This document shows positions 1 to 41,524 of a stretch of DNA of 64,000 nucleotides, piece by piece. Made by a program: the position numbers and the translations under genes. The notes beneath the pieces were generated by a model. The model was not told where the DNA came from, made no database searches, and saw nothing but the letters and a program-made list of their open reading frames with translations. Source of the stretch: an uncultured Rhodospirillaceae bacterium (GTDB lineage Bacteria; Pseudomonadota; Alphaproteobacteria; UBA2966); the NCBI GenBank assembly GCA_964528595.1, contig CAZGTM010000008.1:1133-65132 (forward strand), read 5' to 3'. Within the stretch, counting starts at the first letter, position 1. Each line of letters begins with the position of its first letter.

Positions 1-552
1 AAGGTTCCGGGCTTGGCAAAACTTCGCGATACGCCGTTCTGCCTCTGCTTTGGTGGCTTCGTACTGGTTGCCTTTCACGTCTCCCGGCTCGGAAAGACGC
101 TCAAAGGCGACGCCGTTCTCGACCGGCGCGGCATAGGCCGTGCTGACATAATTCAGGCGGACCGGTTGTTTGAAACTTTCGAGGTACTTGAGCAAATTCT
201 CGGTGCCACCGACGTTGGTGGCATAAACGTCGCCGCCCCCGTTGCTCTGATCCTCAAAGGTGGCGGCAAAGTGCCAAACATCGGTCGTCGTGGCGGCAAT
301 ACGTTCCGCGTCGCATTCTCCAAGGCCGCAGCCTGACGCCCGCACGTTGCCGTCGATGCTGGTGAAACTGGCCGCGGGATCTTTGGGAAAATCTCTGTGC
401 GTTCCGCCAATCCTGTCGATCGTCGGAAGAAGCGATCGTTCCGGCGCGTTTCGCACCAGGGCGAACACCTGCAATCCCTGGCGCAACAATTGGGCGGTAA
501 AAAATGCGCCGAGAAATCCCGTTGCGCCGGTGACGAATGCGGTCCTGGCCAT
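1..552 (-). CDS. NAD(P)-dependent epimerase/dehydratase family protein, N-terminal portion only (gene runs off the window start)
   Basis: Reverse-strand translation from the ATG (complement of 550-552) gives MARTAFVTGATGFLGAFFTAQLLRQGLQVFALVRN..., a Rossmann GxxGxxG N-terminus. The frame stays open to position 1. The ATG overlaps the TGA of the upstream methyltransferase (ATGA coupling). Absent from the ORF track because it is partial. Confidence 0.6.
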   Translation of the reverse strand, partial: MARTAFVTGATGFLGAFFTAQLLRQGLQVFALVRNAPERSLLPTIDRIGGTHRDFPKDPAASFTSIDGNVRASGCGLGECDAERIAATTTDVWHFAATFEDQSNGGGDVYATNVGGTENLLKYLESFKQPVRLNYVSTAYAAPVENGVAFERLSEPGDVKGNQYEATKAEAERRIAKFCQARNL

Positions 553-1706
553 CAGAGACCGGTCTTGGGTTTTTCGGCCGAAATCAACGTATAAAGGTAA
601 GTCGTCGGGGTCACTTCGACGTTGGTGAACCGGGCCTCGTCGAGCATGCGGGATACCTCACCGTAGGACCGGATCTTTCCGGCCGGGCTGATGAGCTGCA
701 TCAGCAGTGAAATGGCGAACGTTTCGTCGGGCGTATCCGCCGATGTCCGCATTGTTTCGTAGATCAGCAAACGCCCTCCCGGCGGCAGTGCCTTGAAGGC
801 TTTGCGCAGCAACAGCTTTACCGTGTCGTCGGGCCAATCGTGCAGCACCCGCATCATGATGATGGTGTCTGGACCCTCGGGGAAATCATCCCGGAAAAAA
901 TCGCCGGGGAATATTTCGATACGAGAATTGAGGGCTGGGAACGGCGTCAGGTAATCCTGTGCCTGGGCGCAAATCTGCGGCAGGTCGAACAGCACGACGC
1001 CCAAATTCGAATACTGCGAGGTTAACGTCGCGGCTAGGCGCCCGCTGCCGCCGCCGACATCGAGCAGCCATTTGCTGTCGCTGAAGTCATGGTATTCCAT
1101 CAGCAGCAACGCCGGAACGACGCCGCTCTCGTGCATCAGGTCGGCGTAGTTGCTGGAGAGGTTATCGCCGTCGCCGAAAAAGTAGGCGAAATTCGTTGTC
1201 GTCGGTGCGTCTTCGACCAGAGCCGTCTCGAGTTCCCGGCAGGCATCGTAAAGGCTTTCGAACAGTTTGACGTTGGCGCCCTGGTATTCCGGACGGCCCT
1301 TGACGAGATAGGTCGCGGATATCGGCGAGTTGCCGTAGAAATCTCCTTCCTTCTCCAGAAGATTAATGGCGACCAGACTATCGAGAAACAAGGCGCAGGG
1401 GTTTTCGGGAATTTTCAGGTGTTCTCTGAGATGCGCCAGGTTCAATGATTTGTTCGACAGGTAGGTGAAAAGGTCGCGCTTCAGCGCAACGGCCAACAGC
1501 TGAGTTCGAAACGCCCCGGTCATGATGCCGAAGAGTTCCGATTCATGCCGTGTCAGAAGCGAACGGTCAACCTGTTCGCGCTGAAATTGGTCAATCGAAA
1601 TGACGCACCCCCAGTAAATCGAACCACATGTCGTTCCCCGTACCAAACATCGGCCTGCCAACGTCGAACTGACATTGTCAAACCGGGCGGTGCCCCCCAA
1701 AAGCAA
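552..1706 (-). CDS. Class I SAM-dependent O-methyltransferase (family 2 O-MT-like)
   Basis: 384-aa ORF with the SAM-binding motif LLDVGGGSGRLAA plus the downstream O-MT motifs PGGRLLIYE and RVLHDWPD. The true start is possibly the internal MTGAFRTQLLAV at 1523. Translationally coupled to the epimerase gene. Confidence 0.8.
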   Translation of the reverse strand: MLLGGTARFDNVSSTLAGRCLVRGTTCGSIYWGCVISIDQFQREQVDRSLLTRHESELFGIMTGAFRTQLLAVALKRDLFTYLSNKSLNLAHLREHLKIPENPCALFLDSLVAINLLEKEGDFYGNSPISATYLVKGRPEYQGANVKLFESLYDACRELETALVEDAPTTTNFAYFFGDGDNLSSNYADLMHESGVVPALLLMEYHDFSDSKWLLDVGGGSGRLAATLTSQYSNLGVVLFDLPQICAQAQDYLTPFPALNSRIEIFPGDFFRDDFPEGPDTIIMMRVLHDWPDDTVKLLLRKAFKALPPGGRLLIYETMRTSADTPDETFAISLLMQLISPAGKIRSYGEVSRMLDEARFTNVEVTPTTYLYTLISAEKPKTGL

Positions 1707-1707
1707 A

Positions 1708-1807
1708 CTGCCAAATTTAATTTGGCAGCCTGTTTGTTAAACAATAAGTCTTAATTAAACATCTAGGCAATTGAAATATTTCAATAAATAGGAACCGATT
1801 TCCTATT
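1708..1807. promoter_or_regulatory. AT-rich divergent promoter/operator region carrying three perfect palindromes
   Basis: Palindromes: CTGCCAAATTTAATTTGGCAG (1708-1728), TTGAAATATTTCAA (1771-1784) and AATAGGAA-ccgat-TTCCTATT (1787-1807). They lie in an AT-rich island between the divergent O-MT and tusA-like genes of an otherwise GC-rich sequence. Confidence 0.5.
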
Positions 1808-1953
1808 TCGTCCTATCGCTCACGGCAATTTGTGCTAAGGCCGGTTGAAATTAAGAAGATGCTAATATACGATTTCGGCAATGTCGTCGGGTGCGGACGG
1901 GTGTATATTCACCGCAGCCAATTCACCGAACCAAAGACCTGAGGGAACCTACC

Positions 1954-2184
1954 ATGTCGGATTTTGACACCGAACTCGATGCCCGCGGCCTCAACTGCCC
2001 GCTGCCCATTCTCCGCGCCAAGAAAGCCATCACCGGCATGGGGTCCGGCGAGGTTCTCAAGGTCGTTGCCACCGATGCCGGGTCGGTCAAGGATTTCGAA
2101 GCCTTCTGCCGCCAATCGGGCGACGAACTGATGGATTCGACCCAGGACGGCAGCGAATACCACTTCCTGATCAAGAAGGCCTAA
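1954..2184 (+). CDS. tusA: TusA-like sulfurtransferase (SirA/YedF/YeeD family)
   Basis: MSDFDTELDARGLNCPLPILRAKKAI... carries the diagnostic CPxP motif. About 77 aa. The start is taken at the internal Met (1954) of ORF 1891..2184. Confidence 0.8.
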   Translation: MSDFDTELDARGLNCPLPILRAKKAITGMGSGEVLKVVATDAGSVKDFEAFCRQSGDELMDSTQDGSEYHFLIKKA

Positions 2185-2232
2185 TTCGCCGACATACATT
2201 TGAGAGGGCGCGCGTTGACCGTGCGCCCTTTT

Positions 2233-5200
2233 CTATTCGGCGGGCGTAGCGGCCGGCGGCGGGCCGTGGGGTTCGGCTTTATCCTTCGCCGTCTCAAGCT
2301 CGCTGAGTTTGCGGGCGATGTGGCCGGAGGGTTTGGCGAAGCGGGCCAGCAGGAGGTAGAGCACCGGCACGATCAGCAAGCTCAGGACAGTCGCAAAACT
2401 AACGCCGCCGATGATGACGACGCCGAGCGAGCGGCGCGCTTCGGCGCCGGCGCCGGTGCCGATGGCCAGGGGCAGGGCGCCGAACGCCGTGGCGATGGAG
2501 GTCATCAGGATGGGCCGCAAGCGGTTGACGGAGGCCTCCGTGACCGCGGTCAGGATATCCTCCCCCTTGTCGCGCAATTGATTGGCGAACTCGACGATCA
2601 GGATGGCGTTCTTGGCCGTCAGGCCGATCAGCATGATCATGCCGATCTGGCTGTAGACATTGAGCGTCACCCCCTCGATCAGCAGCGCTCCCAAGCCGCC
2701 GGTCACCGCCAGCGGCACCGACAACATGATGATGAAGGGGTGGATGAAGCTCTCGAACTGCGCCGCCAGGGCCAGAAAGACGATAATCAGCGCCATGGCG
2801 AAGGTGAACAGGAGGGAGTTCGAGGATTCGCGGAATTCGCGGCTGGCGCCCGTCCAACTGATGCGGGCTTCGGTGGGCAAGGCCTCGCGCGCCGCGTCAC
2901 CCAGTTCCTCAACCGCTTGGCCCAGCGTATACCCAGGCGCCACCGATGCCGTGATGGTTACCGCCCGCATGCGGTCTGCCCGTTTCAACTCCTGCGCCCC
3001 GGCGCTTTCGCGGAAGTGTACGAGGTTGGCCAGCGGGACGAGAACATTGGTTGACGACGAGCGCACGTAGATGTTGGTGAGATCGTGTGGGCTGGCGCGT
3101 TCCTCGGGTCGGGCCTGCAGGATGACATTGTAGAGTTTGCCGCCCTGATCGAACGTCGTGACGTAGCGCGACCCCAGCAAGGTCTCCAGCGTGCGGCCCA
3201 CTTCTTCAACCGGCACGCCGAGGTCGGCGGCGCGGTTACGGTCGATATCGACGAACAGTTCGGGCCGGCTTTCCTCGAAATCCGAAATAACGTTAATCAG
3301 ACTGGGGATGGACCGTGATTCGTCGATCAACCGGTCGCGCCACTCCTTCAGCGTTTCGTAATCCGGTCCCCCCATCACCATGCGGACCGGTGCACCAAAG
3401 CGGCGGCGGCCCAGACTGGCCGGGCTGACGGCAAAGGCGCGCACCCCGGGCACGGTCATCAGCTTGGGGAAGATCTCCTTGACGACGTCCTTCTGGGCAA
3501 TTTCGCGTTCGCCCCAGGGCACCAGGCGCAGGATGATGAAAGCCTTGTTGACCGGACCGGGCCGGCCCCAGCTCGGCGCCACGATGGTGAGCATCGACCA
3601 GGCGTCGCCGCGCTTGATGATGGGCTGCAGGCGTCCTTCGATCTGGTCGACATAGCGCCGCGTGTAATCCAGGCTGGCGGCGTCGGGCGCCGTGATGGGA
3701 ATGAAGATCGCGCCGCGGTCCTCGATCGGGGCGAATTCCTTGGGCACCACCGTCCATAGGCCGAATGCCACGGCCGACAGGGCGCCTCCCACGGCGACCA
3801 CGACCAGCGGCATGGCAAGCATACGCCCGACCAGCCAGCGGTAGCCCGAATGCATGCCGTCGAACAGACGCTCAGTCAGGCGGTAAAGGCCCGCCTCCTC
3901 GTTGGGGTTGACCAGCAGCTTGGAGCACATCATGGGCGTCAAGGTCAGCGCCACGAAGCTGGAAAACGCCACGGCGGTGGCGACGGCGATGCCGAATTCG
4001 GTGAATAGCCGACCGGTTTCCCCCTCCATGAAGGAGATTGGCACGAACACGGCCACCAGCACGATGGTCGTGGCGATGACGGCGAAGGCGATCTGGCGGG
4101 TGCCGCGCACCGCGGCCAGCAGGGTGTCCTCGCCGTTCTCCATGCGGCGGTGGATGTTTTCCAGAACCACGATGGCGTCGTCGACCACCAGTCCGATCGC
4201 CAGCACCAGCGCCAGCAGGGTGAGGATATTGATCGAGAAACCCAGAGCCGCCAGCACGCTGAGCGAGCCGATGATCGAAACCGGGATGGCGACCGCCGGG
4301 ATCAGGGTGGCGCGCAGGCTGCGCAGGAAGATGAAATTGACGGCGATGACCATCACCAGGGCGATGGAAATGGCGATGAAGACCTCGTAGATCGCCTCGC
4401 CGATGAAGACTGCCTGGTTGTAGGCCACCTCGAGCTTGACGCCGGGCGGCAACGAGCTTTGCAGCTTATCCATTTCGGCGATAACGCCGTTCGCCACCTC
4501 CAGCGTGTTGCCCTTGGACTGCTTGACGACGCCGAGGCCGATGGCGTTGCGGCCCGCCACGCGCAGGTCGGTGCGGTCGTTTTCGGCCCCGAGCTCGATT
4601 TCGGCCACTTCACCTAGACGGACGAAGTATCCGCCCGCTTCCCGCACCACGACATTTTCGAAGTCGGCCACATCGCGCAAACTGGAATCGGTGCGCACGG
4701 ACATTTCTCGTTCGACCGATTCGATGCGCCCCGAGGGCAGCAGCACGTTCTGGCGGCGCAGCGCGGTTTCCACGTCCTGCACGGTCAATTGGCGCGCCGC
4801 CAGGGCGTTTTTGTCGAGCCAAATGCGGATGGCATAGCGCCGCCCGCCGCCGATGCGGATGTTGGCGACGCCGGCGACGATGGAAAGGCGATCCCTGAGA
4901 AAACGGTCGGCGTAGTCGGTGAGTTCCAGGCTGCTCAGGCGGTCGCTGGTCAACGCCAACCACATGATGGAGCGGGCGTCATCGTCGGACTTGGCGATAC
5001 GCGGCGCGTCCGCCTCGATGGGCAGCTGGCGGACGGCCCGGCTGACGCGGTCCCGCACGTCGTTGGCGGCGCTGTCCATGTCGCGCTCGACGCCGAATTC
5101 AATGGAGACGGATGACGACTCTTCCCGACTGGTTGACGTGACGGACGTGATGCCCTCGATGCCGGCGACGGCGTCTTCGATGATCTGGGTTACCTGGCTT

Positions 5201-5379
5201 TCAATAATCGTCGCCGAGGCGCCGCGGTAGACCGTGCTGACGGAGACGACGGGCCGGTCGATGTCGGGCATTTCCCGGACGCTCAGGCGCTGGTAGCCGA
5301 ACAGGCCGAAGATGACGAGCACGAGGCTCATCACCGTCGCCAGAACCGGCCGTTTAATCGATGTATCGGAAAGCAGCAT
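2233..5379 (-). CDS. RND multidrug efflux pump, inner-membrane permease (HAE1/AcrB family)
   Basis: ORF of about 1050 aa with 12-TM AcrB architecture. Canonical N-terminus MLLSDTSIKRPVLATVMSL when started at 5379. The longest ORF extends to 5454 with an Arg-rich leader that I consider non-coding. Confidence 0.93.
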   Translation of the reverse strand: MLLSDTSIKRPVLATVMSLVLVIFGLFGYQRLSVREMPDIDRPVVSVSTVYRGASATIIESQVTQIIEDAVAGIEGITSVTSTSREESSSVSIEFGVERDMDSAANDVRDRVSRAVRQLPIEADAPRIAKSDDDARSIMWLALTSDRLSSLELTDYADRFLRDRLSIVAGVANIRIGGGRRYAIRIWLDKNALAARQLTVQDVETALRRQNVLLPSGRIESVEREMSVRTDSSLRDVADFENVVVREAGGYFVRLGEVAEIELGAENDRTDLRVAGRNAIGLGVVKQSKGNTLEVANGVIAEMDKLQSSLPPGVKLEVAYNQAVFIGEAIYEVFIAISIALVMVIAVNFIFLRSLRATLIPAVAIPVSIIGSLSVLAALGFSINILTLLALVLAIGLVVDDAIVVLENIHRRMENGEDTLLAAVRGTRQIAFAVIATTIVLVAVFVPISFMEGETGRLFTEFGIAVATAVAFSSFVALTLTPMMCSKLLVNPNEEAGLYRLTERLFDGMHSGYRWLVGRMLAMPLVVVAVGGALSAVAFGLWTVVPKEFAPIEDRGAIFIPITAPDAASLDYTRRYVDQIEGRLQPIIKRGDAWSMLTIVAPSWGRPGPVNKAFIILRLVPWGEREIAQKDVVKEIFPKLMTVPGVRAFAVSPASLGRRRFGAPVRMVMGGPDYETLKEWRDRLIDESRSIPSLINVISDFEESRPELFVDIDRNRAADLGVPVEEVGRTLETLLGSRYVTTFDQGGKLYNVILQARPEERASPHDLTNIYVRSSSTNVLVPLANLVHFRESAGAQELKRADRMRAVTITASVAPGYTLGQAVEELGDAAREALPTEARISWTGASREFRESSNSLLFTFAMALIIVFLALAAQFESFIHPFIIMLSVPLAVTGGLGALLIEGVTLNVYSQIGMIMLIGLTAKNAILIVEFANQLRDKGEDILTAVTEASVNRLRPILMTSIATAFGALPLAIGTGAGAEARRSLGVVIIGGVSFATVLSLLIVPVLYLLLARFAKPSGHIARKLSELETAKDKAEPHGPPPAATPAE

Positions 5380-5389
5380 GCGCGACCGC

Positions 5390-6601
5390 CTAGCCCGACG
5401 TGCCGGCGGGCTTTTTCGCCCCCGCCGTCGGCATGCCGGCGGGCTTCTTGGCATCGGAACTGCCGTCCGGCTTCTTCGCTTTGGGTTTGCCGCCTTTCTT
5501 GAAGCCGCCCGGCGGTAGGATTTTGACGGCCTGGCCCTTGCGCACCTTCTGGATGCCGGCGGTGACGACCGGCGTGCCGGCCGCTAGGCCGGACAGGATT
5601 TCGATTTCCCCCTTCACGTGTTCGCCGGTCTTGACGGCGACCTTGTCGGCCTTGCCGTCCTTGATGGCGAAAACATAGCGCGCATCGCTGGAGGCGATCA
5701 GGGATTCTTCCGGTATCAGGATGGCGTTCTTGCGCACCGCCGCCGTGAGCGTGGCGGCCAGGAACATGCCGGGGCGCAGCTTGGCGTGCTTGTTGTCGAA
5801 GTGGGCGCGGATTTCGACCGAACGCGTCACCGGGTCGACCCGGCTGGAAACCGTGCCGACCTTGCCCCGGAACACGTCACCGGGATAGGCGGCGCTGGTG
5901 GCCGAAACCGTCTGGCCTTTCTTGACGAACGCCAGCGCCGTTTCGGGGACGCGGAAATCCACCTTGATGCGGGACGTGTCGTCCAATGTGGTGATTTCGG
6001 TGCCGGGCGTTATCAGGGCGCCGAGGGAGATACGGCGAAGACCCAAGCGCCCCGAAAAGGGAGCCCTGACGACGGTTTCGTCCAACCGGGCTTCGTCGGT
6101 GGCGACCCGCGCCTGGGCGGCCTGCAGCAGACCGAACAGATCCTGGACCCGCGCTTCCGGTACGTTTCGGTTCTTCAGCAGGCGTTTGGCGCGGTCATAC
6201 AATCGCTTGGCGTTGTCCCGGCTGGCGTGGGCCTCGGCCAGTTCGGCGTCGAGCTCGCCGGCTTCCAGTTCCAGCAGCACGGCGCCTTTCTTGACCCACT
6301 GGCCTTCGCGGAAACGGATATTGCCAACCATGCCGGTGACCTTGGCCGTGACGACGACCGCTTCGTTGGCCTGCGCCGTGCCGACGGCATCCACGGTGAC
6401 CACGACGTCGCCGGTGCGCGCCGGCTTGACTTCGACCAGCGCCGGGCGTCCACCGCCGCGGCCACCCTTTTTTGCCGACTTATCGCCGCCGCTTAGCCAC
6501 GGCAGCTTGTCGGCATAGGGGATTTGATCGCGGTACTGCCAGCCGCCGTACCCCATACCCGCAATGACCGCCACGACGACCAACTGGGTGATTACTCTCA
6601 T
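5390..6601 (-). CDS. RND efflux membrane fusion protein (HlyD/AcrA family periplasmic adaptor)
   Basis: 403 aa with an N-terminal TM anchor ([13 protein letters not shown]) and coiled-coil plus beta-barrel adaptor regions. Sits immediately upstream of the RND permease (10-nt gap). C-terminal Lys/Pro-rich tail. Confidence 0.85.
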
Positions 6602-6747
6602 CCGCTATGCCTCACAGTACGCCCGACAAATATCAAGGGCGCGGCAGGTCCCGCGCCGGGCTGGCATTAAAGCGTGAAAACACGGAAAATGACAGCGCCG
6701 CACAGGTTTTCTCACGCTGTCGTTACATCCCGGAAAGGCCCCCGCCC

Positions 6748-15245: not shown

Positions 15246-15818
15246 CTAACGGTCCATGCCGTGGTATTCGGGGTTGGGCATCATGTCGACGGCCAGGGCG
15301 ACGCGGTTGCTCATGTTGAAGAAGCCGGCGACCTCGGCGATTTCCCAGATGTCCGAATCGGAAAAACCGTGGTCGCGCAGACCCTGGCGGTCTTCTTCCG
15401 ACATGTTCTTCGGGTTCTCCGTCAGCTTGACCGCGAAATCGAGCATGGCGCGCTGGCGCGGTTCCAATTCGGCGTTGCGGTAATTCATCACCATCAATTC
15501 GCCCAGCATGGGATCGCCGGAATACTGGCGCACGGCCTGGCCATGGGCGACCAGGCAATAGACGCATTTATTCTCGGACGACACCGCCACGGCGATCATT
15601 TCGCGCTCCAGCTTGCTCAAGCCCCCCTCGCTCAGCATCAACTCGTTGTACATGTTGACGAAGGCGGAAAGCTTCTTCGTGTTCCACGAATAAGCCTGCA
15701 GCACATTGGGAATCATGCCGAGTTTTTCGGTGCATTTGTCGAAGTAGGCCTGCATCTTGTCATCGAGTTCGGCCGGCGGCAGGTCGAGCGCCATGATGTG
15801 GTCGGGCTGTGCGGACAT
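15246..15818 (-). CDS. Carboxymuconolactone decarboxylase family protein (AhpD-like peroxidase-related enzyme)
   Basis: 190 aa with the AhpD-type CxxC motif (ENKCVYCLVAHG). Confidence 0.75.
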   Translation of the reverse strand: MSAQPDHIMALDLPPAELDDKMQAYFDKCTEKLGMIPNVLQAYSWNTKKLSAFVNMYNELMLSEGGLSKLEREMIAVAVSSENKCVYCLVAHGQAVRQYSGDPMLGELMVMNYRNAELEPRQRAMLDFAVKLTENPKNMSEEDRQGLRDHGFSDSDIWEIAEVAGFFNMSNRVALAVDMMPNPEYHGMDR

Positions 15819-17842: not shown

Positions 17843-18691
17843 TCATACCGCTTCTTGCGCTCCCGCCTGCCGCCCGATGGCGGCGTTAATCTCCGCGCCG
17901 AACAGAAAAACCGCGCCCAAAAGATAGAAAAAGATCATGGCGATAACCACGCCGCCCAGGCTGCCGTAGGTGATGTCGTAATTGTTGAAGTGGCCCAGAT
18001 AGAGCGTAAAGGAGGCCGCCGCAGCGCCCCACAGGACCAAGGTGAGCAGCGCGCCGGGCAGGATCGCCTTCCAGGGCGGCCGCCGGGCGGGCAGCATGCC
18101 GTACAGCGCGCTCAGCAACAACAGGACGAAGGCGACGCCGATCAGGCTGCGGAACGGGCCAAGCTCAAACGCCGGCAAATCGATGAAGCCCAATTGCGCC
18201 GCCGCGTCCTGGCAGAGGATGGGAGCCAGGATCAGCACCGTCACGCTGATCACGATCAGGACGCCGCCGACCATCACCAGGCCGATGCTTTCCAGTCGCC
18301 GCCGCCAAAAGGGGATCGGGGATTTTTCCCCGAAGGCGCGCTCGATACCGGCCCTGGCGCCCTCCACAGCCGAGGCCGCCGTCCAGACAGCGCCCGCCAT
18401 ACCGATGGTCAGCAGGCCGCCGCGCAATTCCTGCAGGACCTGCAGGATCGGTTCCTCGAACACGGCCGCCACGTGTTCGGGCATGTTCTCCAGCACGAAG
18501 GCGACGATCATGGTGCCGGCCTCGGTATTACCGATGAAGCCGGCCAGGGCGACGATGAAAATGAGGAAGGGAAAGAGGGTCAAGAGCGTCATGAAAGCGA
18601 GGTGACCGGCGATCAGGGGGGCGCCATTGCGGATGAATCCCACAAAAGCGGAGCCCAGTACCCGGAATGCGCTGTGACCGATGCGGAGCAT
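17843..18691 (-). CDS. YihY/BrkB family inner-membrane protein (formerly called RNase BN)
   Basis: 282 aa, multi-TM. N-terminal FRVLGSAFVGFIRNGAPLIAGHLAFMTLLTLFPFL characteristic of YihY/BrkB. Confidence 0.75.
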   Translation of the reverse strand: MLRIGHSAFRVLGSAFVGFIRNGAPLIAGHLAFMTLLTLFPFLIFIVALAGFIGNTEAGTMIVAFVLENMPEHVAAVFEEPILQVLQELRGGLLTIGMAGAVWTAASAVEGARAGIERAFGEKSPIPFWRRRLESIGLVMVGGVLIVISVTVLILAPILCQDAAAQLGFIDLPAFELGPFRSLIGVAFVLLLLSALYGMLPARRPPWKAILPGALLTLVLWGAAAASFTLYLGHFNNYDITYGSLGGVVIAMIFFYLLGAVFLFGAEINAAIGRQAGAQEAV

Positions 18692-18800
18692 GAGCGTGAG
18701 AGTAGCGCCTCCCGGCTGTCAAACCCATACCTTTGGGCGTTTTACATTTTGTCGAATAGCGAATGGCGGTACTCTGCCAGCCTTCAAAACGGAGCTTGGA

Positions 18801-19481
18801 ATGACAGAGTACAATTACGCCGATTTCAGCCTGAAGCGCGAGATGCCGCCGTTCGATGAATTCCGCGACCGGCTGCACGCCGGGGAACGGGCGCCGGACT
18901 TCCCGCTGGAGGACCTTGCCAGCGGCGCGACCGTGCAACTGCGGGACTTGTGGAAAAAAGGCCCGGCGATCATCGAGTTCGGCTCCTTCACCTGACCGTA
19001 CTGCGCCATGGCGGCCGAGGCGATGGACGACCTCGCCGACCGCCTGGCGGACCGAGCCGTGAGCTCGGCCTTTCTGTACACTCGTGAAGCCCATCCCGGC
19101 GAAAACTACCGCCACCACACCTCGATGGACGGCAAGCGCGCCAACGCGAGGGCCTTTCAGGAGCATGTGAACCTGAGGCGGCCGATCCTGCTGGACGATC
19201 TCGAAGGCACGGCCCACAAGGCCTACGGTATCCTGCCGAACATGACCTGGATCATCGGCAAGGGCGGCATGATCCTTTACAAGGCCGCCTGGACGGGCGT
19301 CGAAGATGTCGAAGACGCTTTCAACAGTCTGATGGACGGTCACGCCCGGCGCATCAAGGACCAACTGGTGCCTTTCTACAGCGAACGCTTCGCCTGGCGG
19401 ACGCGCGATGAGGACGGCTTCAAGGGCGGCCTGGAACGCGCCGGTCCGCAGGCCGTGTCGGACTTCTACGACAAGGAATAG
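18801..19481 (+). CDS. Candidate selenoprotein: thioredoxin-fold peroxiredoxin/deiodinase-like protein with in-frame TGA (Sec) at codon 18993-18995
   Basis: ORFs 18681..18995 and 19008..19481 share one frame and are separated only by a TGA. Read through, the product is ...APDFPLEDLASGATVQLRDLWKKGPAIIEFGSFT-U-PYCAMAAE... The TGA sits at the catalytic Cys position of the redoxin/deiodinase motif. ATG at 18801 has a GGAG RBS. Confidence 0.6.
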
Positions 19482-19544
19482 CAGGACGCTGTCGGACCGG
19501 GGTTAATTTCATTGAACAAATCGACCCTACCCCCCCCATCCTAT

Positions 19545-19567
19545 CCTTCCCCCGCCAGGGGGGAAGG
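19545..19567 (+). terminator. GC-rich hairpin after the selenoprotein gene (candidate terminator)
   Basis: CCTTCCCC-cgccag-GGGGAAGG perfect 8-bp stem. The downstream T-tract is weak. Confidence 0.4.
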
Positions 19568-19601
19568 AACTCACATTGGAAATTCGCCCAAACATTAAAA
19601 G

Positions 19602-19624
19602 CCCTCCCCCTTGACGGGGGAGGG
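19602..19624 (-). terminator. Rho-independent terminator for the minus-strand 3-HAO operon
   Basis: CCCTCCCCC-ttgac-GGGGGAGGG 9-bp stem. On the minus strand it is followed by CTTTTAATGTTT. Confidence 0.55.
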
Positions 19625-19687
19625 TTGGGTGGGGGTGGGGCCACAAGAACTAAATTGGGTTAGCTGATTTCAGCTCGTGGGTAGGAT

Positions 19688-25510: not shown

Positions 25511-28429
25511 TCAGGGCATTTTCTTGTTCTTTTCCCAGGATTCTGTAAGCCGTTGGGCGCCCACCAGTTCGTGGGGCAGCATTTCGGCGCGCAGTTCGCC
25601 AAGGAAGCGCTTGGCGGTCTGGTGTCCGTTGTCGGCCGCCAGCGACCACCAGAGATAGGCGCGGGCCAGATCCTCGTCCACGCCGGCGCCGTCGCGATAA
25701 AGCCCGCCGACATAGAACTGGGCGTCCGGATCGCCCTTTTCCGCCGCCGGTAGCCAAAGGTCCAGGGTGGCCTCGTAGTTGCGCGCGCGGTAAGCCAGCA
25801 GTCCGGCATCCAGAATTCCGGAGGGCGGCGGGGCGGAATTCGGTGACGTCGATACCGCAATGGTTTCCGGCGCCAGGGCGGCGGTACGCACGGATTTCCC
25901 ACCCGTTTCCAGTTCGTTGAAGCCACTGCCCGAACCCTCGGCGGCTTCCTTTATCTCTGCCGCCCGGGCCTCGGCCACGATGACCGGCGAGGGCGGTTTG
26001 GGCAGTGCGGGGGGCGTGGGTTTGGCGGCTTCAACCTTGGGCGCGTCCTGCTGTTCGGTTTCGTCGGTTGTGACCGAAGCGGGCGGCGGCGGCGCGGCGG
26101 CCGGTTTTTCCGCTGGCACCGACTTGTTCGCTTCGTCTATTAGGACCTGGGACGGCGGAACCGGTTCGGCGGGCAACGCGGCAGCCGTTTGCGTGCGGGC
26201 CTCCTCGACGAGGACCGGTGAGGGCGGTACGGCTTGGGGGGCGGCGGCCTTCAATCTTTCGGCTATTTCGGCCTTGCGCTTCTCTTCTTCGGCCTTCAAT
26301 TCCGCGGCGGCATCGGCCGCCGCCTGCCGTTTTGCCTCATCGGCTTCGCGCTTCTCCGCCTCGGCCCGCAATCTGGCGGCAACCTCGGCCTCGGCCTTCC
26401 GTTTCGCTTCTTCGGCTTTGCGCTGAACCTCGGCTTCCGCTTCCGCCTTGATACGGGCTTCTTCCGCCCTGCGTTTCCGCACCTCTTCTTCTTCGGCTTT
26501 GCGTTTGGCATCGGCGGCAAGTTGCTTTGCCGCTTCGGCCTTGCGCTTGGCTTCGGCTTCCGCCTCGGCTTCCGCCTTGAGGCGGGCGTAAAGTTCTTCG
26601 GCCCGGCGTTTTTCCTCAGCCAGGCGTTTTTCTTCTTCCTCCCGGCGTTTACGCTCGGCTTCCGCAACCGCCCGCGCTTTAGCCTCTTCCGCTGCCTTGC
26701 GTTTCTCCTCCGCCAGGCGCCGTGCGTCAGCTTCCCGCTTGGCCGCATCCGCCTTGGCTTTTTCCAGCGCTGCTACTTTCCGCCTGGCTTCGGCTTCCGC
26801 GGCAATTTTTTCGGCCGTGCGCGCCGCTTCCTCCGCCCGGACGCGCTCCTCCTCCTCGGCCTTCTTTTCGGCGGCAATGCGCGCCTTGGCTTTGAGGATT
26901 TGCAACTCGGCTTCCTTGCGCCGCTCCTCGGCTTCCTTACGCGCCGTTTCCGCCGCCTCTTCGATCAGGATGGGCGAGGGCACGGCTTGGCGTTTGGCGA
27001 TGGCGGCGGCGAGCTCCTGCTCGGCCTTGCGTGCCTCCGTTTCGGCTGATTTGGCGGCATTACGGACTTTTTCCGCTTCCGCGACGGCGATCTTGGCAAT
27101 CCGTTCCTGCTCGGCCAACAGGACTTCCGCCGCCTTGCGGCGTTCCTCCGCCTTGGCCACGGTCGCTTCGAGGTCCTTGCGTTTGCGTTCGGCCTCGGCA
27201 ATCGCGGCCTCGGCGGCACTGCGCCGGTTTTCGGCATCGATCCGGCGCTGTTCCGCTTCCTCGGCGGCCGTTTCGGCGGCAGTGCGCGCGACCTGGGCCC
27301 GAACCGCTTCCGTCGCCTTGCGTTCGGCTTCCTCCTGGGCAGCCAGGGCGGCGGCCTTTTCCTCTTCCAGTTTTGCCGCCGTCACTTCCGCCGCACGGCG
27401 GGCCGCCGCCGCCGCGGCTTCGGCGGCATTGCGGGCGGCCTGGGCGCGGGCGATATCGGCGGCTTTGCGGTCTTTCTCGGCTTTCGCGGCATCCTCGGCC
27501 GCCTTCAATTCCATGGCCCGGCGTTCAGCCTGGGTGACCTCGCTGGACTGCTGGGCGGCCGCCGCAACGCGGGTGGCTTCGTCCCTGGCGGCTTCCGCCT
27601 TGACGGCCTCGGCGCGCGCCGCCTCCGCCTTGGCGGCTTCTTCCTGCAACTTTTCTTCGGCCAGCCGTTTGGTGTCTTCTGCCAGTCGCTTGGCTTCCTC
27701 CGCCAGGCGTTTGGCTTCGGCTTTGCGGCGGATTTCAGCGGCGCGGCGTTCCGCTTCAGCCTGTTTGCGGGCGGTTTCCGCCTTGCGCGCCGCCTCGGCT
27801 GCCTCCGCCGCCTGCTTTTTCGCTTCGGCTGCGGCTTCGGTGGCGCGTTTTTCGGCTTCGCCGGAATCAGGCGGGGTATCGGTGGGTGCCGGTGTCACGC
27901 CCTTAGAGATCAGTAGGGCCAGCTTTTCCATTGCCTTGCGATTTCCCAGACGCGAGGCCTGGTAGTACCAACTCAGGGCGGTGACATCGCTTTTTTCGAC
28001 GCCGACGCCGTTTTCAAACATCAGGCCGAGGTTGTATTGCGCAATATGGTGGTTCTGTTTCGCCGCCCGCGTGAACCACTTGGCCGCTTCCTTGGGATCC
28101 TTGGAGGTGCCCTGGCCACGCAGATACATATTCCCGAGATTGGCCTGGGCCCGGGCAAAGCCTTGCTCGGCGGCTTTACGGTACCAGATCAGGGACTGCT
28201 TGAAATCCTTGGGTACGCCTTGGCCGACCCGGTAGAGGTGGCCGATGTTTCGTTGTGATGCCGGGTCGCCCTTTTCCGCCAGCGGCAGCCATTCCTTATA
28301 GGCCTTGGCGTAGTCGCCGATTTCATAGGCGGCGAGGCCGGCGGCAAAATCGGCGCGCGCCGGAGCTGCGGCGGCAAACGACAGCACCGCCGTAACAAGA
28401 AGGGCGTAAAGAAATCGTACTGAAGTCAC
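25511..28429 (-). CDS. Secreted Sel1-repeat protein with a long E/A/K/R-rich coiled-coil core and a Pro-rich segment
   Basis: 972 aa. A signal peptide, then N-terminal Sel1 repeats (GDPASQRNIGHLYRVGQGVPKDFKQSLIWYRKAAEQG...). About 570 aa of AEAKRLAEEAKRLAEDTKRLAEE-type low complexity, then a PPSPV Pro-rich stretch. C-terminal Sel1 repeats (GDPDAQFYVGGLYRDGAGVDEDLARAYLWW). Confidence 0.8.
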   Translation of the reverse strand: MTSVRFLYALLVTAVLSFAAAAPARADFAAGLAAYEIGDYAKAYKEWLPLAEKGDPASQRNIGHLYRVGQGVPKDFKQSLIWYRKAAEQGFARAQANLGNMYLRGQGTSKDPKEAAKWFTRAAKQNHHIAQYNLGLMFENGVGVEKSDVTALSWYYQASRLGNRKAMEKLALLISKGVTPAPTDTPPDSGEAEKRATEAAAEAKKQAAEAAEAARKAETARKQAEAERRAAEIRRKAEAKRLAEEAKRLAEDTKRLAEEKLQEEAAKAEAARAEAVKAEAARDEATRVAAAAQQSSEVTQAERRAMELKAAEDAAKAEKDRKAADIARAQAARNAAEAAAAAARRAAEVTAAKLEEEKAAALAAQEEAERKATEAVRAQVARTAAETAAEEAEQRRIDAENRRSAAEAAIAEAERKRKDLEATVAKAEERRKAAEVLLAEQERIAKIAVAEAEKVRNAAKSAETEARKAEQELAAAIAKRQAVPSPILIEEAAETARKEAEERRKEAELQILKAKARIAAEKKAEEEERVRAEEAARTAEKIAAEAEARRKVAALEKAKADAAKREADARRLAEEKRKAAEEAKARAVAEAERKRREEEEKRLAEEKRRAEELYARLKAEAEAEAEAKRKAEAAKQLAADAKRKAEEEEVRKRRAEEARIKAEAEAEVQRKAEEAKRKAEAEVAARLRAEAEKREADEAKRQAAADAAAELKAEEEKRKAEIAERLKAAAPQAVPPSPVLVEEARTQTAAALPAEPVPPSQVLIDEANKSVPAEKPAAAPPPPASVTTDETEQQDAPKVEAAKPTPPALPKPPSPVIVAEARAAEIKEAAEGSGSGFNELETGGKSVRTAALAPETIAVSTSPNSAPPPSGILDAGLLAYRARNYEATLDLWLPAAEKGDPDAQFYVGGLYRDGAGVDEDLARAYLWWSLAADNGHQTAKRFLGELRAEMLPHELVGAQRLTESWEKNKKMP
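26150..27860 (-). repeat. Low-complexity coding repeat (GC-rich GCn/GAn codon reiteration encoding E/A/K/R)
   Basis: Reiterated gcggc/ttcgg/cttgg units. They generate many overlapping spurious ORFs on both strands in the ORF track. Confidence 0.7.
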
Positions 28430-40306: not shown

Positions 40307-40741
40307 TTACGTCGTACAGGCTTTGGCGCCGGCCGGGCGTTCGGGCGCGTTATCGAGAAGGCTCTTCAAGGCGCTTTCGCTGGTTTGCGCCACGACGCGC
40401 GCCAGTTCGCCTTTCGGCGAGAGCATGACCAGCGTCGAGCGCCTGACGACCCTCAGCTTTTTCGAAATCGGGGAACCTGCGTGAATATCCCAATCAGCAT
40501 ATATAAAGGCGATGTTCCTGTCGTAGTCGGCGTTGCCTGATCTCAGTTGCCGGATCACACGGACCTGGCGCTGGCAGGTGCCTCACCACTTGGCGCCGAA
40601 ATCAAGGACGACCGAACAGCCCTTGGCCAGCGCCGCATCAAGTGCCTTCGGCGAATAGGGTGTGTCCCCGTTCCCCGCGTTCGCCGCCGTGGCGCCCATT
40701 AGCGCCAGGGCGCCCGCGGCCAGCATTCCAATTTTATTCAA
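40307..40741 (-). CDS. Candidate selenoprotein: periplasmic thioredoxin-like protein (Trx/TlpA-like, CcdA partner) with in-frame TGA (Sec) at 40583-40585
   Basis: Minus-strand frame continuous from TTG 40741 (RBS GGAGGAG 6 nt upstream, 3 nt after the ccdA stop). Read through, the product is (M)NKIGMLAAGALALMGATAANA|GNGDTPYSPKALDAALAKGCSVVLDFGAKW-U-GTCQRQVRVIRQLRSG...VVRRSTLVMLSPKGELARVV... It has a signal peptide and the Trx motif W-C-G-P-C with the first Cys replaced by TGA. The ORF track reports only the 83-aa part after the stop. Confidence 0.6.
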
Positions 40742-40759: not shown

Positions 40760-41524
40760 TCATATCGAAACGGATAGATCCTGTAACCAGAGCGGCAGGA
40801 TATTCAAAACACGGCCCTCCAGCCAATGGTCAACGCCCAATAAAATGCCCACGCCGACACACAAAAACGTGATCCCCAGGACGGGTTTGGCGCGCTCGGA
40901 AAGGTATCCGAACGCTTTTTGCCGTCGCTGGATGACTTCGCGGGCGCCGAAGGCCAGCGCCAGGATGACGCTGGAGACACCCAGCGCGAAGGTCGCCATG
41001 ATGCCACCGGCCCAGGCCAGGCTTTCCCCTTGCGAGGCCAGCGCGATGGCGCCGCCCAGCGTGGGGCCGATGCAGGGCGACCAAATCGCCCCCAGCAGAA
41101 AGCCGCCGATGAACTGACCGCCGAGGCTGGTGGCCGCGCCGCCCGCCTCGAGTCCGCGCAGACCCGTATCGGCGCGGGCGGCGAATACCGCGGTTAGGGC
41201 CGCAAAGCCGTCATTCAGGCGCGGCACCAAAAGAACCACGCCAAAACCGATCATCAACCAGGCGCCCGTCGTGGTCATCAGGCGTTGATCGAGACCGATG
41301 GACGCCCCCGCCACCAGCACAAACATGCCGACCACGACGAAGGACAGGCTGAGGCCCGCAGCCATGACCAGCGGCCCCCGCCGGTCGGCCTGCAGCGAAG
41401 AGGCCAGCACGATGGGCAGCACAGGCAGAACGCAAGGATTGATCAGCGTCAGCAACCCGGCGAGATATCCCAACACCAGTTCAAGCACCGCAGTCTCCAA
41501 ATTTCGACCGTCAAATAGAGACAT
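40760..41524 (-). CDS. ccdA: Cytochrome c-type biogenesis / thiol-disulfide electron-transfer membrane protein CcdA (DsbD beta-domain family)
   Basis: Two conserved Cys in TM segments: LINPCVLPVLP and AIWSPCIGPTLGGA. Six TM helices. Confidence 0.88.
   Translation of the reverse strand: MSLFDGRNLETAVLELVLGYLAGLLTLINPCVLPVLPIVLASSLQADRRGPLVMAAGLSLSFVVVGMFVLVAGASIGLDQRLMTTTGAWLMIGFGVVLLVPRLNDGFAALTAVFAARADTGLRGLEAGGAATSLGGQFIGGFLLGAIWSPCIGPTLGGAIALASQGESLAWAGGIMATFALGVSSVILALAFGAREVIQRRQKAFGYLSERAKPVLGITFLCVGVGILLGVDHWLEGRVLNILPLWLQDLSVSI

What the first reader, a model, noticed from the sequence alone, without database searches (positions are those of the whole stretch)
18801..19481. In-frame TGA at the catalytic position of a deiodinase/peroxiredoxin-like thioredoxin-fold gene (FGSFT-U-PYC)
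Two ORFs in the track (18681..18995 and 19008..19481) share one reading frame and are separated by a single TGA at 18993-18995. Translating through gives one 226-aa thioredoxin-fold protein. The TGA falls exactly where redoxins carry their peroxidatic or catalytic Cys: ...GPAIIEFGSFT-[TGA]-PYCAM..., preceded by the APDFPLEDLASG...V.L.DL pattern. FGS.TUP is also the active-site signature of iodothyronine-deiodinase-like selenoproteins. A stop at this exact residue with a Cys three residues later (UxxC) is the classic footprint of a selenocysteine codon, not of a pseudogene. A downstream stem-loop candidate lies 20-45 nt after the UGA (CGAGG...CCUCG). Automated annotation would truncate or split this gene.
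Basis: partly seen in the sequence, partly recalled or inferred. Interest (0 to 1): 0.85.

Follow-up and report, generated by a model that had tools for sequence, protein, structure and literature searches.

The report
Selenocysteine codon in deiodinase-like gene
The apparent stop codon inside this bacterial gene is almost certainly read as selenocysteine, giving one 226-residue redox enzyme related to thyroid-hormone deiodinases. The reading is correct, but it adds a member to a selenoprotein family first described from ocean metagenomes in 2005.

Summary
One frame runs from ATG 18801 to TAG 19481, broken only by TGA 18993-18995 (codon 65) in the motif EFGSFT-U-PYC.

- The same gene, TGA included, is base-identical in six independent assemblies.
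- 59 of 60 species-level genomes from at least six bacterial groups carry TGA at exactly this codon. Both flanks show coding-type conservation.
- Full-length relatives carry Cys at that position.
- In all 60 sequences, nt 10-60 after the UGA fold more stably than synonymous recodings. The one close Cys (TGC) form has no hairpin.
- In two Burkholderiales-type MAGs the orthologue lies within about 2 kb of tRNA-Sec, and in one of them next to selB.
- TGA is otherwise the commonest ordinary stop here.

This matches the known "deiodinase-like protein" selenoprotein family (PF00837, UxxC), whose function is untested. selA/B/C/D were not found in about 78 kb around the gene, and the rest of the genome could not be searched. 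Two further in-frame-TGA redox genes in the window support selenocysteine use by this organism.

The parts
18791..18794 (+). Shine-Dalgarno-like GGAG, 6 nt before the start codon
   Evidence: Read directly from the sequence.
18801..19481 (+). Complete coding sequence of the deiodinase-like selenoprotein: 226 residues including U65, stop TAG
   Evidence: Translation. The start is supported by the conserved M-x-x-YNY N-terminus in 59 homologues. Pfam T4_deiodinase and AhpC-TSA both score above their gathering cut-offs.
18978..19004 (+). Active-site motif F60-G-S-F-T-U65-P-Y-C68. It sits at the end of a beta strand and the start of helix alpha1 in the model of the Cys homologue.
   Evidence: F60, G61, T64, U/C65 at 90% or more; P66 invariant. 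Secondary structure. U65 aligns with the Cys that replaces the catalytic Sec in the Dio3 and Dio2 crystal constructs (Sec170 and Sec130 per PMC11592359).
18993..18995 (+). In-frame UGA, read as selenocysteine (codon 65)
   Evidence: TGA at the same codon in 59 of 60 genome loci. The gene is base-identical in six assemblies. Homologues carry Cys here.
19004..19049 (+). SECIS-like hairpin inside the coding sequence. Lower stems are 19004-19008/19045-19049 and 19010-19014/19040-19044. The upper stem is 19019-19023/19033-19037, or alternatively 19016-19020/19031-19035. The apex is around 19021-19032 and contains the near-invariant AUGGA.
   Evidence: -29.9 kcal/mol, z -3.1. No synonymous recoding out of 200 is as stable, and the segment ranks in the top 1% of 51-nt windows of its own gene. 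Pair counts are 72-79% against 29-57% for slid controls, with both-side changes at 27-45, 30-42 and 22-48.
19077..19103 (+). Y93-T-R-E96-A-H98-P-G-E motif, the counterpart of the deiodinase Y-I-(E/D)-E-A-H-P-S-D segment at the edge of loop-D. H106 follows at 19116-19118.
   Evidence: E96, H98 and P99 are invariant; Y93, R95 and H106 are at 90% or more. Alignment to Dio3 and Dio2. The relay residues are named in PMC11592359.

Best explanation
The gene at 18801-19481 is a single gene for a soluble, thioredoxin-fold selenoprotein of the bacterial deiodinase-like family.

Decoding. UGA-65 is recoded as selenocysteine. A hairpin in the mRNA 10-57 nt downstream acts as a bacterial SECIS. It recruits SelB, GTP and Sec-tRNA(Sec) to the ribosome when the UGA is in the A site, so translation continues to TAG 19481.

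Chemistry (inferred). The selenolate of U65 sits at the N-terminus of helix alpha1 and is the attacking nucleophile. The oxidised intermediate (selenenic acid or Se-X) is resolved by C68 to an intramolecular selenenylsulfide, which a thioredoxin or glutaredoxin system then reduces. The conserved S62, T64, Y93, E96, H98 and H106 network, homologous to the deiodinase proton relay, handles protons.

Shown here: the single reading frame, the conservation of the UGA, the Sec/Cys pairing, selection for a downstream hairpin, the homology to deiodinases, and Sec machinery next to orthologues in two other genomes. Inferred: actual Sec insertion in this organism, the catalytic cycle and the substrate. 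The substrate is most likely a peroxide or another small oxidant or disulfide; a halogenated aromatic is possible.
For:: one frame, a single TGA.

the gene is identical, TGA included, in six assemblies from six samples.

of 787 homologues, 119 of the best 120 clusters are 150-190-aa fragments that start just after the TGA. The exception is P0007, a full-length form with FGSFTCPYC.

59 of 60 species-level genome loci have TGA at this codon. They come from Alphaproteobacteria, Beta- and Gammaproteobacteria, Acidobacteriota, Acidimicrobiia, Myxococcota and Thermomicrobiaceae.

nucleotide diversity at codon positions 1/2/3 is 0.32/0.22/0.55 upstream of the TGA, against 0.16/0.16/0.46 in the 36 codons after it and 0.26/0.20/0.52 further downstream. 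No locus has a stop in the 55 codons upstream.

the wider family has 1061 clusters, and most have Cys at the U column.

the hairpin is more stable than synonymous recodings in 60 of 60 sequences, mean z -2.05. For the window it is -29.7 against -20.6 kcal/mol.

the TGC form folds at -6.2 kcal/mol, z +1.1.

tRNA-Sec lies about 0.6 kb (L037) and 1.9 kb (L046) from the orthologue. In L046 a SelB C-terminal gene (PF25461, PF09107) adjoins it.

TGA terminates 29 of 62 ordinary genes here, so the code is standard.

two more in-frame-TGA redox genes lie in the same window.
Against: No selA, selB, selD or tRNA-Sec lies in the window or within 10 kb on either side. The rest of this genome could not be searched.

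The exact SECIS register and apical loop are unresolved. RNAalifold found no consensus hairpin, and two exclusive registers score alike.

The apex differs from the GUCCGUGUG apex shared by the other two candidate Sec genes in the window.

The 60 sequences are related, so the 60/60 result is not 60 independent trials. Only one close Cys form was available as a control.

No Rfam family matches.

The structure model is of the 53%-identical Cys homologue, not of the window protein.

No biochemical data exist for any member of the family (PMC13188914).
Confidence: 0.9

Rival explanations
1. The TGA is a nonsense mutation, or an assembly or sequencing error, in a decaying Cys-type redoxin gene (a pseudogene).
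For: Gene callers treat it as two ORFs. One related locus, L068, does look N-terminally degraded.
Against: The gene is identical, TGA included, in six independent assemblies. TGA sits at the same codon in 59 species-level genomes across at least six bacterial groups. Variation on both sides of the TGA is coding-type, and no locus has a second stop. An independent nonsense mutation at one codon in 59 lineages is not credible.
Confidence: 0.01
2. Translation really stops at UGA-65. The locus makes a 64-residue peptide and, from ATG 19008, a separate 157-residue protein, possibly acting as a split thioredoxin fold.
For: An ATG lies 4 codons after the TGA. Most database entries are exactly this 150-190-aa product. 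Some termination at Sec codons is normal in bacteria (general knowledge).
Against: The split would cut the fold between strand beta1 and helix alpha1 and remove the catalytic residue. The post-TGA Met is not at a fixed position among homologues, whose called starts vary (MAAE.., MDDL.., METL..). No ribosome-binding site is evident before 19008 (sequence). Full-length Cys forms exist as single chains. Selection for a hairpin right after the UGA is unexplained by this model.
Confidence: 0.04
3. UGA-65 is read through as a standard amino acid (Trp, Cys or Gly), either by a suppressor tRNA or because the organism uses a reassigned genetic code, not as Sec.
For: No Sec machinery was seen in the 78 kb examined. 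UGA reassignment does exist in some uncultured bacteria (general knowledge).
Against: TGA is the commonest ordinary stop here, ending 29 of 62 genes in and around the window. The UGA aligns with the catalytic Cys/Sec of a redox family. Orthologues sit beside tRNA-Sec and selB. All three in-frame TGAs in the window fall at the first Cys position of a redox motif. Both patterns are typical of Sec codons and not of a reassigned code.
Confidence: 0.03

Closest known systems
Bacterial 'deiodinase-like protein' selenoprotein family (Zhang & Gladyshev 2005, Sargasso Sea, PMC1088965; GOS 2008, PMC2398784; listed as PF00837, UxxC in the 2026 review PMC13188914)
   Same: PF00837 match above the gathering score, a UxxC motif, an in-frame UGA paired with Cys in homologues, a stem-loop directly after the UGA, and a marine metagenome origin.
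   Different: No difference in kind was found. New here: the clade around this gene is almost exclusively Sec (59 of 59 informative species genomes; 119 of the best 120 clusters), it spans at least six bacterial groups, and in two Burkholderiales-type MAGs it sits in a cluster with other UxxC selenoprotein genes, tRNA-Sec and, in one of them, selB.
Vertebrate iodothyronine deiodinases Dio1-3 (structures 4TR3/4TR4 Dio3, 9H48 Dio2)
   Different: There is no N-terminal membrane anchor. Loop-D is 9-12 residues shorter, so it lacks the central part implicated in thyronine binding. A Cys three residues after Sec (UPYC) replaces UPPF or UPSF. There is an extra C-terminal helical region (residues ~165-226). 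The SECIS is bacterial and lies inside the coding sequence, not in a 3'-UTR. Sequence identity is only about 18%.
NCBIfam NF038285 'deiodinase_rel' (deiodinase family protein, 347-position model)
   Same: It is the best NCBIfam hit and covers the catalytic domain (residues 28-163).
   Different: 65.6 bits against a cut-off of 250, and only the C-terminal half of the model matches. This is a different subfamily. No curated NCBIfam model covers this clade, which explains why NCBI records name the truncated products 'hypothetical protein'.
TlpA/ResA/DsbE-type thiol-disulfide oxidoreductases and BCP-type peroxiredoxins (PF00578 AhpC-TSA, PF08534 Redoxin)
   Different: The family profile matches these proteins only over the N-terminal half, at E values at least eight orders of magnitude weaker than for Dio3. 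The protein has no signal peptide or membrane anchor, unlike TlpA and ResA. It lacks the Pro of the peroxiredoxin PxxxT/SxxC signature (I58 at that position; sequence, with the motif from general knowledge).
Escherichia coli fdhF-type bacterial SECIS
   Same: A hairpin within the coding sequence begins about 10 nt after the UGA, with its apex about 30-40 nt downstream. One fold has a bulged U below a small G-containing loop (fdhF features from general knowledge).
   Different: The apical sequence is different (AUGGA conserved, partly because it encodes the invariant Met75). No GGUC-type loop is present. The register is ambiguous, and binding to SelB is untested.

Membership tests
Bacterial deiodinase-like selenoprotein family (PF00837, UxxC) | Match to Pfam PF00837 (T4_deiodinase) at or above the gathering score | tested here: met
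   37.2 bits against a cut-off of 27, residues 20-162 on profile positions 68-217 (U replaced by C).
Bacterial deiodinase-like selenoprotein family (PF00837, UxxC) | In-frame UGA aligned with Cys in homologues (a Sec/Cys pair), with conserved flanks | tested here: met
   P0007 has FGSFTCPYC. Most of 42 full-length relatives have Cys at that column. TGA occurs in 59 of 60 genome loci. Diversity on both sides is coding-type.
Bacterial deiodinase-like selenoprotein family (PF00837, UxxC) | UxxC redox motif | tested here: met
   U65-P-Y-C68. The +3 Cys is present in all 59 Sec forms.
Bacterial deiodinase-like selenoprotein family (PF00837, UxxC) | Stable stem-loop immediately downstream of the UGA | tested here: met
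   -29.9 kcal/mol, z -3.1. More stable than synonymous recodings in 60 of 60 sequences. Absent from the TGC form.
Bacterial deiodinase-like selenoprotein family (PF00837, UxxC) | Small apical loop containing a conserved guanosine at a defined place (bacterial SECIS consensus) | tested here: inconclusive
   G33 and G34 are near-invariant and lie at or next to the apex. Two registers fit about equally well, RNAalifold gave no consensus, and these bases also encode the invariant Met75.
Bacterial deiodinase-like selenoprotein family (PF00837, UxxC) | Sequence relationship to the published members (AACY01143874; MFL2763324.1) | not testable with these tools
   Those accessions cannot be fetched here. 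Assignment rests on the shared Pfam family and motif given in PMC1088965 and PMC13188914.
Selenocysteine-decoding organism | selA, selB, selD and tRNA-Sec (selC) in the same genome | tested here: inconclusive
   None in the 64-kb window or in the called genes from about 3.4 kb before to 10 kb after it. The rest of the genome is unavailable. Indirect support: tRNA-Sec, and in L046 also selB, lie beside orthologues in L037 and L046. Two more in-frame-TGA redox genes lie in the window.
Iodothyronine deiodinases (Dio1-3) | Thioredoxin fold with peroxiredoxin-like additions; closest solved fold | tested here: met
Iodothyronine deiodinases (Dio1-3) | Active site G-S-x-T-U-P with Sec as the nucleophile | tested here: met
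   FGSFT-U-P aligns with FGSCT-C(U)-P of Dio3 and FGSAT-C(U)-P of Dio2.
Iodothyronine deiodinases (Dio1-3) | Proton-relay residues Tyr, Glu, His, His at the edges of the Dio insertion (Dio2 Tyr157, Glu160, His162, His182; PMC11592359) | tested here: met
   Y93, E96, H98 and H106 align with them. E96 and H98 are invariant; Y93 and H106 are at 90% or more.
Iodothyronine deiodinases (Dio1-3) | Full-length omega loop (loop-D) that contributes to thyronine binding | tested here: not met
   A 9-residue gap against Dio3 and a 12-residue gap against Dio2 lie between HPGEN and YRHH.
Iodothyronine deiodinases (Dio1-3) | N-terminal transmembrane anchor | tested here: not met
   The N-terminus MTEYNYADFSLKREMPPFDEFRDRLHAGERAPDF is polar and charged. 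The model of the homologue has no long N-terminal helix. No transmembrane predictor was run.
Iodothyronine deiodinases (Dio1-3) | Reductive deiodination of iodothyronines | not testable with these tools
   This needs an enzyme assay.
NCBIfam NF038285 deiodinase_rel | Whole-protein score at or above the curated cut-off (250 bits) | tested here: not met
   65.6 bits.
Peroxiredoxins (AhpC/TSA) | Pfam PF00578 above the gathering score | tested here: met
   40 bits against 26.
Peroxiredoxins (AhpC/TSA) | Active-site signature P-x-x-x-T/S-x-x-C (general knowledge of the family) | tested here: not met
   S62 is at -3, but the -7 position is I58, not Pro. The profile matches peroxiredoxins far more weakly than deiodinases.

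The most novel reading that the evidence does not exclude
This almost exclusively Sec-containing clade keeps the whole deiodinase catalytic apparatus: Sec plus the Ser/Thr/Tyr/Glu/His/His relay. Its members could therefore be true cofactor-free reductive dehalogenases, acting on iodinated or brominated phenolics in sea water and soil, and not peroxidases or disulfide reductases. On that reading they would be the bacterial ancestors of thyroid-hormone deiodination chemistry and a second, non-corrinoid route of reductive dehalogenation in aerobic bacteria.
Probability: 0.12. Interest if true: 0.75.

Novelty: new member of a known kind. Interest (0 to 1): 0.35.

Why it matters
Practically, the gene is mis-annotated everywhere it occurs. 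It appears as a 64-aa and a 157-aa ORF, or as a truncated 'hypothetical protein', and no curated NCBIfam model rescues it. Hundreds of selenoprotein genes are therefore invisible in MAG annotations.

Biologically, it marks this uncultured Rhodospirillaceae-like marine bacterium as a selenocysteine user, with at least two and probably three selenoprotein genes in 64 kb.

It also shows that the bacterial deiodinase-like family is widespread, nearly always Sec, and retains the proposed deiodinase proton relay. That makes it a tractable soluble model for deiodinase chemistry and a candidate for testing whether deiodination predates animals. None of this is surprising to a selenoprotein specialist.

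Tried and rejected
- RNAalifold on the 60 aligned downstream segments returned only a trivial 2-bp structure. I then tested named structures and a synonymous-recoding control.
- Rfam found nothing at gathering thresholds. At E up to 10 it returned only spurious miRNA-type hits to the intergenic palindrome.
- A mechanical scan for ORF pairs joined by TGA gave more than 200 pairs in this GC-rich window and was useless as a detector. The two other candidates came from split gene calls.
- Neighbour-gene clustering over the 60 loci was dominated by spurious antisense ORFs of the gene itself. It showed no partner conserved across phyla, so I infer no operon partner.
The Cys homologue P0007 was modelled instead.
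- The afdb50 fold library was unavailable.
- The look-up of the 1073-aa ORF at 2233-5454 failed, probably because the called start differs.
- Walking the contig for sel genes reached only 10 kb beyond each end of the window and found none.
- Pseudogene, sequencing error, split gene and code reassignment were each considered and rejected, as set out under the rival explanations.

Full report
**Observation**

The window has ORFs at 18681..18995 and 19008..19481 in one frame, separated only by TGA 18993-18995. Translation from ATG 18801 gives MTEYNYADF...GPAIIEFGSFT*PYCAMAAE...DFYDKE*. That is 226 residues if the TGA is counted as a residue, ending at TAG 19479-19481. A GGAG lies 6 nt before ATG 18801. 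In 59 homologues an M-x-x-YNY N-terminus begins about 64-65 codons before the TGA, so 18801 is the start, not the mechanical ORF start at 18681.

Two ORFs joined by a TGA are common in this 61% GC window. The adjacency alone means nothing, and the case rests on what follows.

**Is the TGA real and conserved?**

The whole gene, TGA included, is base-for-base identical in six assemblies from six different samples (L001, L002, L003, L006, L007, L008). Gene callers split it into 64 aa + 157 aa there.

A search of 5.8 billion proteins with the read-through sequence found 787 homologues. Of the best 120 clusters, 119 are 150-190-aa products that cover only the part after the TGA. One, P0007, is full length with FGSFTCPYC.

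I then scanned one genome per species (GTDB), using patterns taken from the C-terminal half so that the scan was blind to the Sec/Cys site. It returned 60 loci, and 59 have TGA at exactly this codon inside ...EFGS(F/I/L/Y)T-TGA-P(Y/F)C.... They come from Rhodospirillales and other Alphaproteobacteria, Beta- and Gammaproteobacteria, Acidobacteriota, Acidimicrobiia, Myxococcota and Thermomicrobiaceae. The sixtieth locus (L068) lacks the N-terminal half.

Nucleotide diversity at codon positions 1/2/3 is 0.32/0.22/0.55 in the 36 codons before the TGA. It is 0.16/0.16/0.46 in the 36 codons after it and 0.26/0.20/0.52 further downstream. No locus has a stop in the 55 codons upstream. Both halves are therefore translated in one frame. 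Sequencing error and pseudogene are excluded.

**Standard genetic code**

TGA terminates 29 of 62 called genes in and around the window. UGA is therefore not generally reassigned in this organism.

**Sec/Cys pairing**

An exhaustive HMMER search with the Cys form found 1061 clusters. Of 42 full-length relatives at about 26-38% identity, most have Cys at the aligned column (FGS.TCP..), and a few have Ala, Gly or Ser.

**Downstream RNA structure**

The 60 nt from the UGA fold into an extended hairpin of -29.9 kcal/mol, z -3.1 against dinucleotide shuffles.

Because the region is coding, I controlled for the protein sequence. For each of the 60 sequences, nt 10-60 were compared with 200 recodings that keep the peptide and the gene's own codon usage. 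The native sequence is more stable in 60 of 60 cases, with mean z -2.05. For the window the values are -29.7 against -20.6 kcal/mol, and 0 of 200 recodings are as stable. The segment is also among the most stable 51-nt windows of each gene (mean rank 6%; 1% for the window gene). The sequences are related, so this is not 60 independent tests.

The one close Cys form (TGC; L071) folds at -6.2 kcal/mol, z +1.1.

Named-structure counts give 72-79% paired cells against 29-57% when partners are slid. Both-side changes occur at synonymous positions, for example columns 30-42 (G-C to C-G in 8 sequences), 27-45 and 22-48. It is incompatible with the minimum-free-energy register, and RNAalifold found no consensus. 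A hairpin with its apex about 29-40 nt after the UGA is supported, but its exact apical loop is not.

**Sec machinery**

No tRNA gene is predicted in the window. No SelA, SelB or SelD domain appears among the called genes from about 3.4 kb upstream to 10 kb downstream of the window. The rest of the genome could not be reached.

Two species-level MAGs do show the link. In L037 (Betaproteobacteria) and L046 (Burkholderiales), a tRNA-Sec (anticodon TCA) lies about 0.6 and 1.9 kb from the orthologue. In L046 it adjoins a gene with SelB beta-barrel and winged-helix domains. These loci also carry a DsbA-like gene (FSD(F/Y)V-TGA-PWC) and a Prx-like gene (YRGHW-TGA-PYC).

**What the protein is**

Pfam gives AhpC-TSA (40 bits) and T4_deiodinase (37.2 bits), both above their cut-offs. 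The relationship to deiodinases is specific. A profile of the family hits mouse Dio3 at E 1.8e-20 and Dio2 at 4.7e-16 over residues 22-162. The next hits (ResA/TlpA-like) are at least eight orders of magnitude weaker and cover only the N-terminal half.

U65 aligns with the Cys that replaces the catalytic Sec in the Dio3 and Dio2 crystal constructs. The Dio2 residues proposed as a proton relay are Ser127, Thr129, Tyr157, Glu160, His162 and His182 (PMC11592359). They align with S62, T64, Y93, E96, H98 and H106, which are invariant or at least 90% conserved.

There are four differences from the animal enzymes:
- There is no membrane anchor.
- Loop-D is 9-12 residues shorter.
- A Cys lies at +3 (UPYC).
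- There is an extra C-terminal helical region.

NCBIfam's deiodinase_rel model scores 65.6 bits against a cut-off of 250, so no curated model covers this clade.

**Mechanism**

The decoding part (UGA plus an in-frame SECIS hairpin, SelB and Sec-tRNA) follows from the evidence above and from established knowledge of bacterial Sec insertion.

The chemistry is inferred from the fold and motifs. The selenolate of U65 at the N-terminus of helix alpha1 attacks the substrate. C68 resolves the oxidised selenium to a selenenylsulfide, and a thiol system recycles it. The substrate is unknown. A peroxide or disulfide is the conservative guess. Because the deiodinase relay is conserved, dehalogenation remains a live minority possibility.

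**Comparison with what is known**

Bacterial deiodinase-like selenoproteins were reported from the Sargasso Sea in 2005, as 4 Sec and 6 Cys sequences in Pfam00837, each with a bacterial SECIS (PMC1088965). The GOS data of 2008 list the family again, with 22 selenoprotein sequences (PMC2398784). The 2026 review lists the family as 'Deiodinase-like protein, PF00837, UxxC' and says the functions of such families remain largely unknown (PMC13188914). The present gene fits that family on every feature I could test.

This is therefore a new member of a known kind. Three increments come from this work:
- The clade is almost exclusively Sec across at least six bacterial groups.
- The relay residues are conserved.
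- The gene clusters with tRNA-Sec and, in one genome, selB in Burkholderiales-type MAGs.

**Other selenoprotein candidates in the window**

The first lies at 52187-53308 (+). TGA 52598-52600 interrupts ...KVFLATWASW-U-GCRADL.... With C in place of U, the protein scores 276.9 bits against NCBIfam NF041054 'ResA-like WAxxUGC motif-containing protein' (cut-off 300). Cys homologues read TWASWCGCR, and many homologues are truncated at the same point.

The second lies at 40307-40726 (-), just downstream of a DsbD_TM gene. TGA 40585-40583 interrupts a signal-peptide-bearing thioredoxin-like protein at ...DFGAKW-U-GTCQRQ.... An 89%-identical relative keeps the TGA.

The 9-mer GTCCGTGTG occurs exactly twice in the 64 kb, 21-22 nt after the U of these two TGAs and in different reading frames. 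In the WAxxUGC gene it forms the apex of a hairpin with a CGUGU loop. This looks like a shared SECIS apex, and it independently supports Sec decoding in this organism. The deiodinase-like gene's apex is different.

**Verdict**

It is a new member of a known family and is of moderate-to-low interest.

Noticed in passing
window 52187-53308 (+), TGA at 52598-52600: A second selenoprotein gene, called as two genes (137 aa + 228 aa, both with weak AhpC-TSA hits). Read through, it gives ...KVFLATWASW-U-GCRADL.... With C in place of U it scores 276.9 bits on NCBIfam NF041054 'ResA-like WAxxUGC motif-containing protein' (cut-off 300). Cys homologues read TWASWCGCR, and many homologues are truncated to 228 aa. 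It corresponds to the 'Prx-like (UGC-containing)' family of the GOS study (PMC2398784).
   Followed up: yes
window 40307-40726 (-), TGA at 40585-40583; DsbD_TM gene at 40760-41524 (-): A third candidate: a thioredoxin-like protein with a signal peptide, split into 47 aa + 83 aa by a TGA at ...VVLDFGAKW-U-GTCQRQ... (WCxxC becomes WUGTC), immediately downstream of a CcdA/DsbD-type membrane protein. Only two close homologues were found, both truncated. An 89%-identical relative (L077 2318-2752) keeps the TGA and the frame. L046 1076-1501 (-) has a thioredoxin-like gene with WCPTC in the same position next to a CcdA-like gene; I did not align it to this candidate.
   Followed up: partly
window 40556-40564 (-) and 52618-52626 (+): The 9-mer GTCCGTGTG occurs exactly twice in the window (0.5 expected). 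Each copy lies 21-22 nt after the U of one of the two other in-frame TGAs, in different reading frames. In the WAxxUGC gene it forms the apex of a hairpin (UCUGUC-CGUGU-GGCAGA). It is possibly the organism's preferred SECIS apex. The deiodinase-like gene does not share it.
   Followed up: partly
L037 (JBQTJF010000227.1) 238-4348 and L046 (DATDCR010000015.1) 1958-6638: A selenoprotein gene cluster in two Burkholderiales-type MAGs: DsbA-like (FSD(F/Y)V-U-PWC), deiodinase-like (FGSFT-U-PFC) and Prx-like (YRGHW-U-PYC) genes, then tRNA-Sec. In L046 a SelB C-terminal gene directly adjoins the tRNA.
   Followed up: partly
window 19520-19645: A 126-nt intergenic element between the convergent deiodinase-like and 3-hydroxyanthranilate dioxygenase genes. 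C-rich and G-rich arms fold into a branched structure of -75.7 kcal/mol (z -5.7). It is single copy in the window and absent from the relatives whose gene product is 94-97% identical. Three independent assemblies break inside it. The only Rfam matches are spurious miRNA-type hits. It may be a bidirectional terminator or a strain-specific repeat.
   Followed up: partly
window 25511-28429 (-): A 972-residue called gene with no Pfam hit on record, conserved in all assemblies of this contig, next to a glycine-zipper/17-kDa-antigen-like gene.
   Followed up: no
window 15246-15818 (-): An AhpD/CMD 'peroxidase-related enzyme' (TIGR01926, 218.6 bits) with a CVYC motif. This is the Cys form of a family that also has Sec (CxxU) members according to PMC13188914.
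   Followed up: partly
L068 (JAYGEF010000262.1) 3001-3438: The only one of the 60 genome loci without the TGA site. Only residues 83-223 match, and the upstream frame does not encode the N-terminal half. It is possibly a decayed copy.
   Followed up: no
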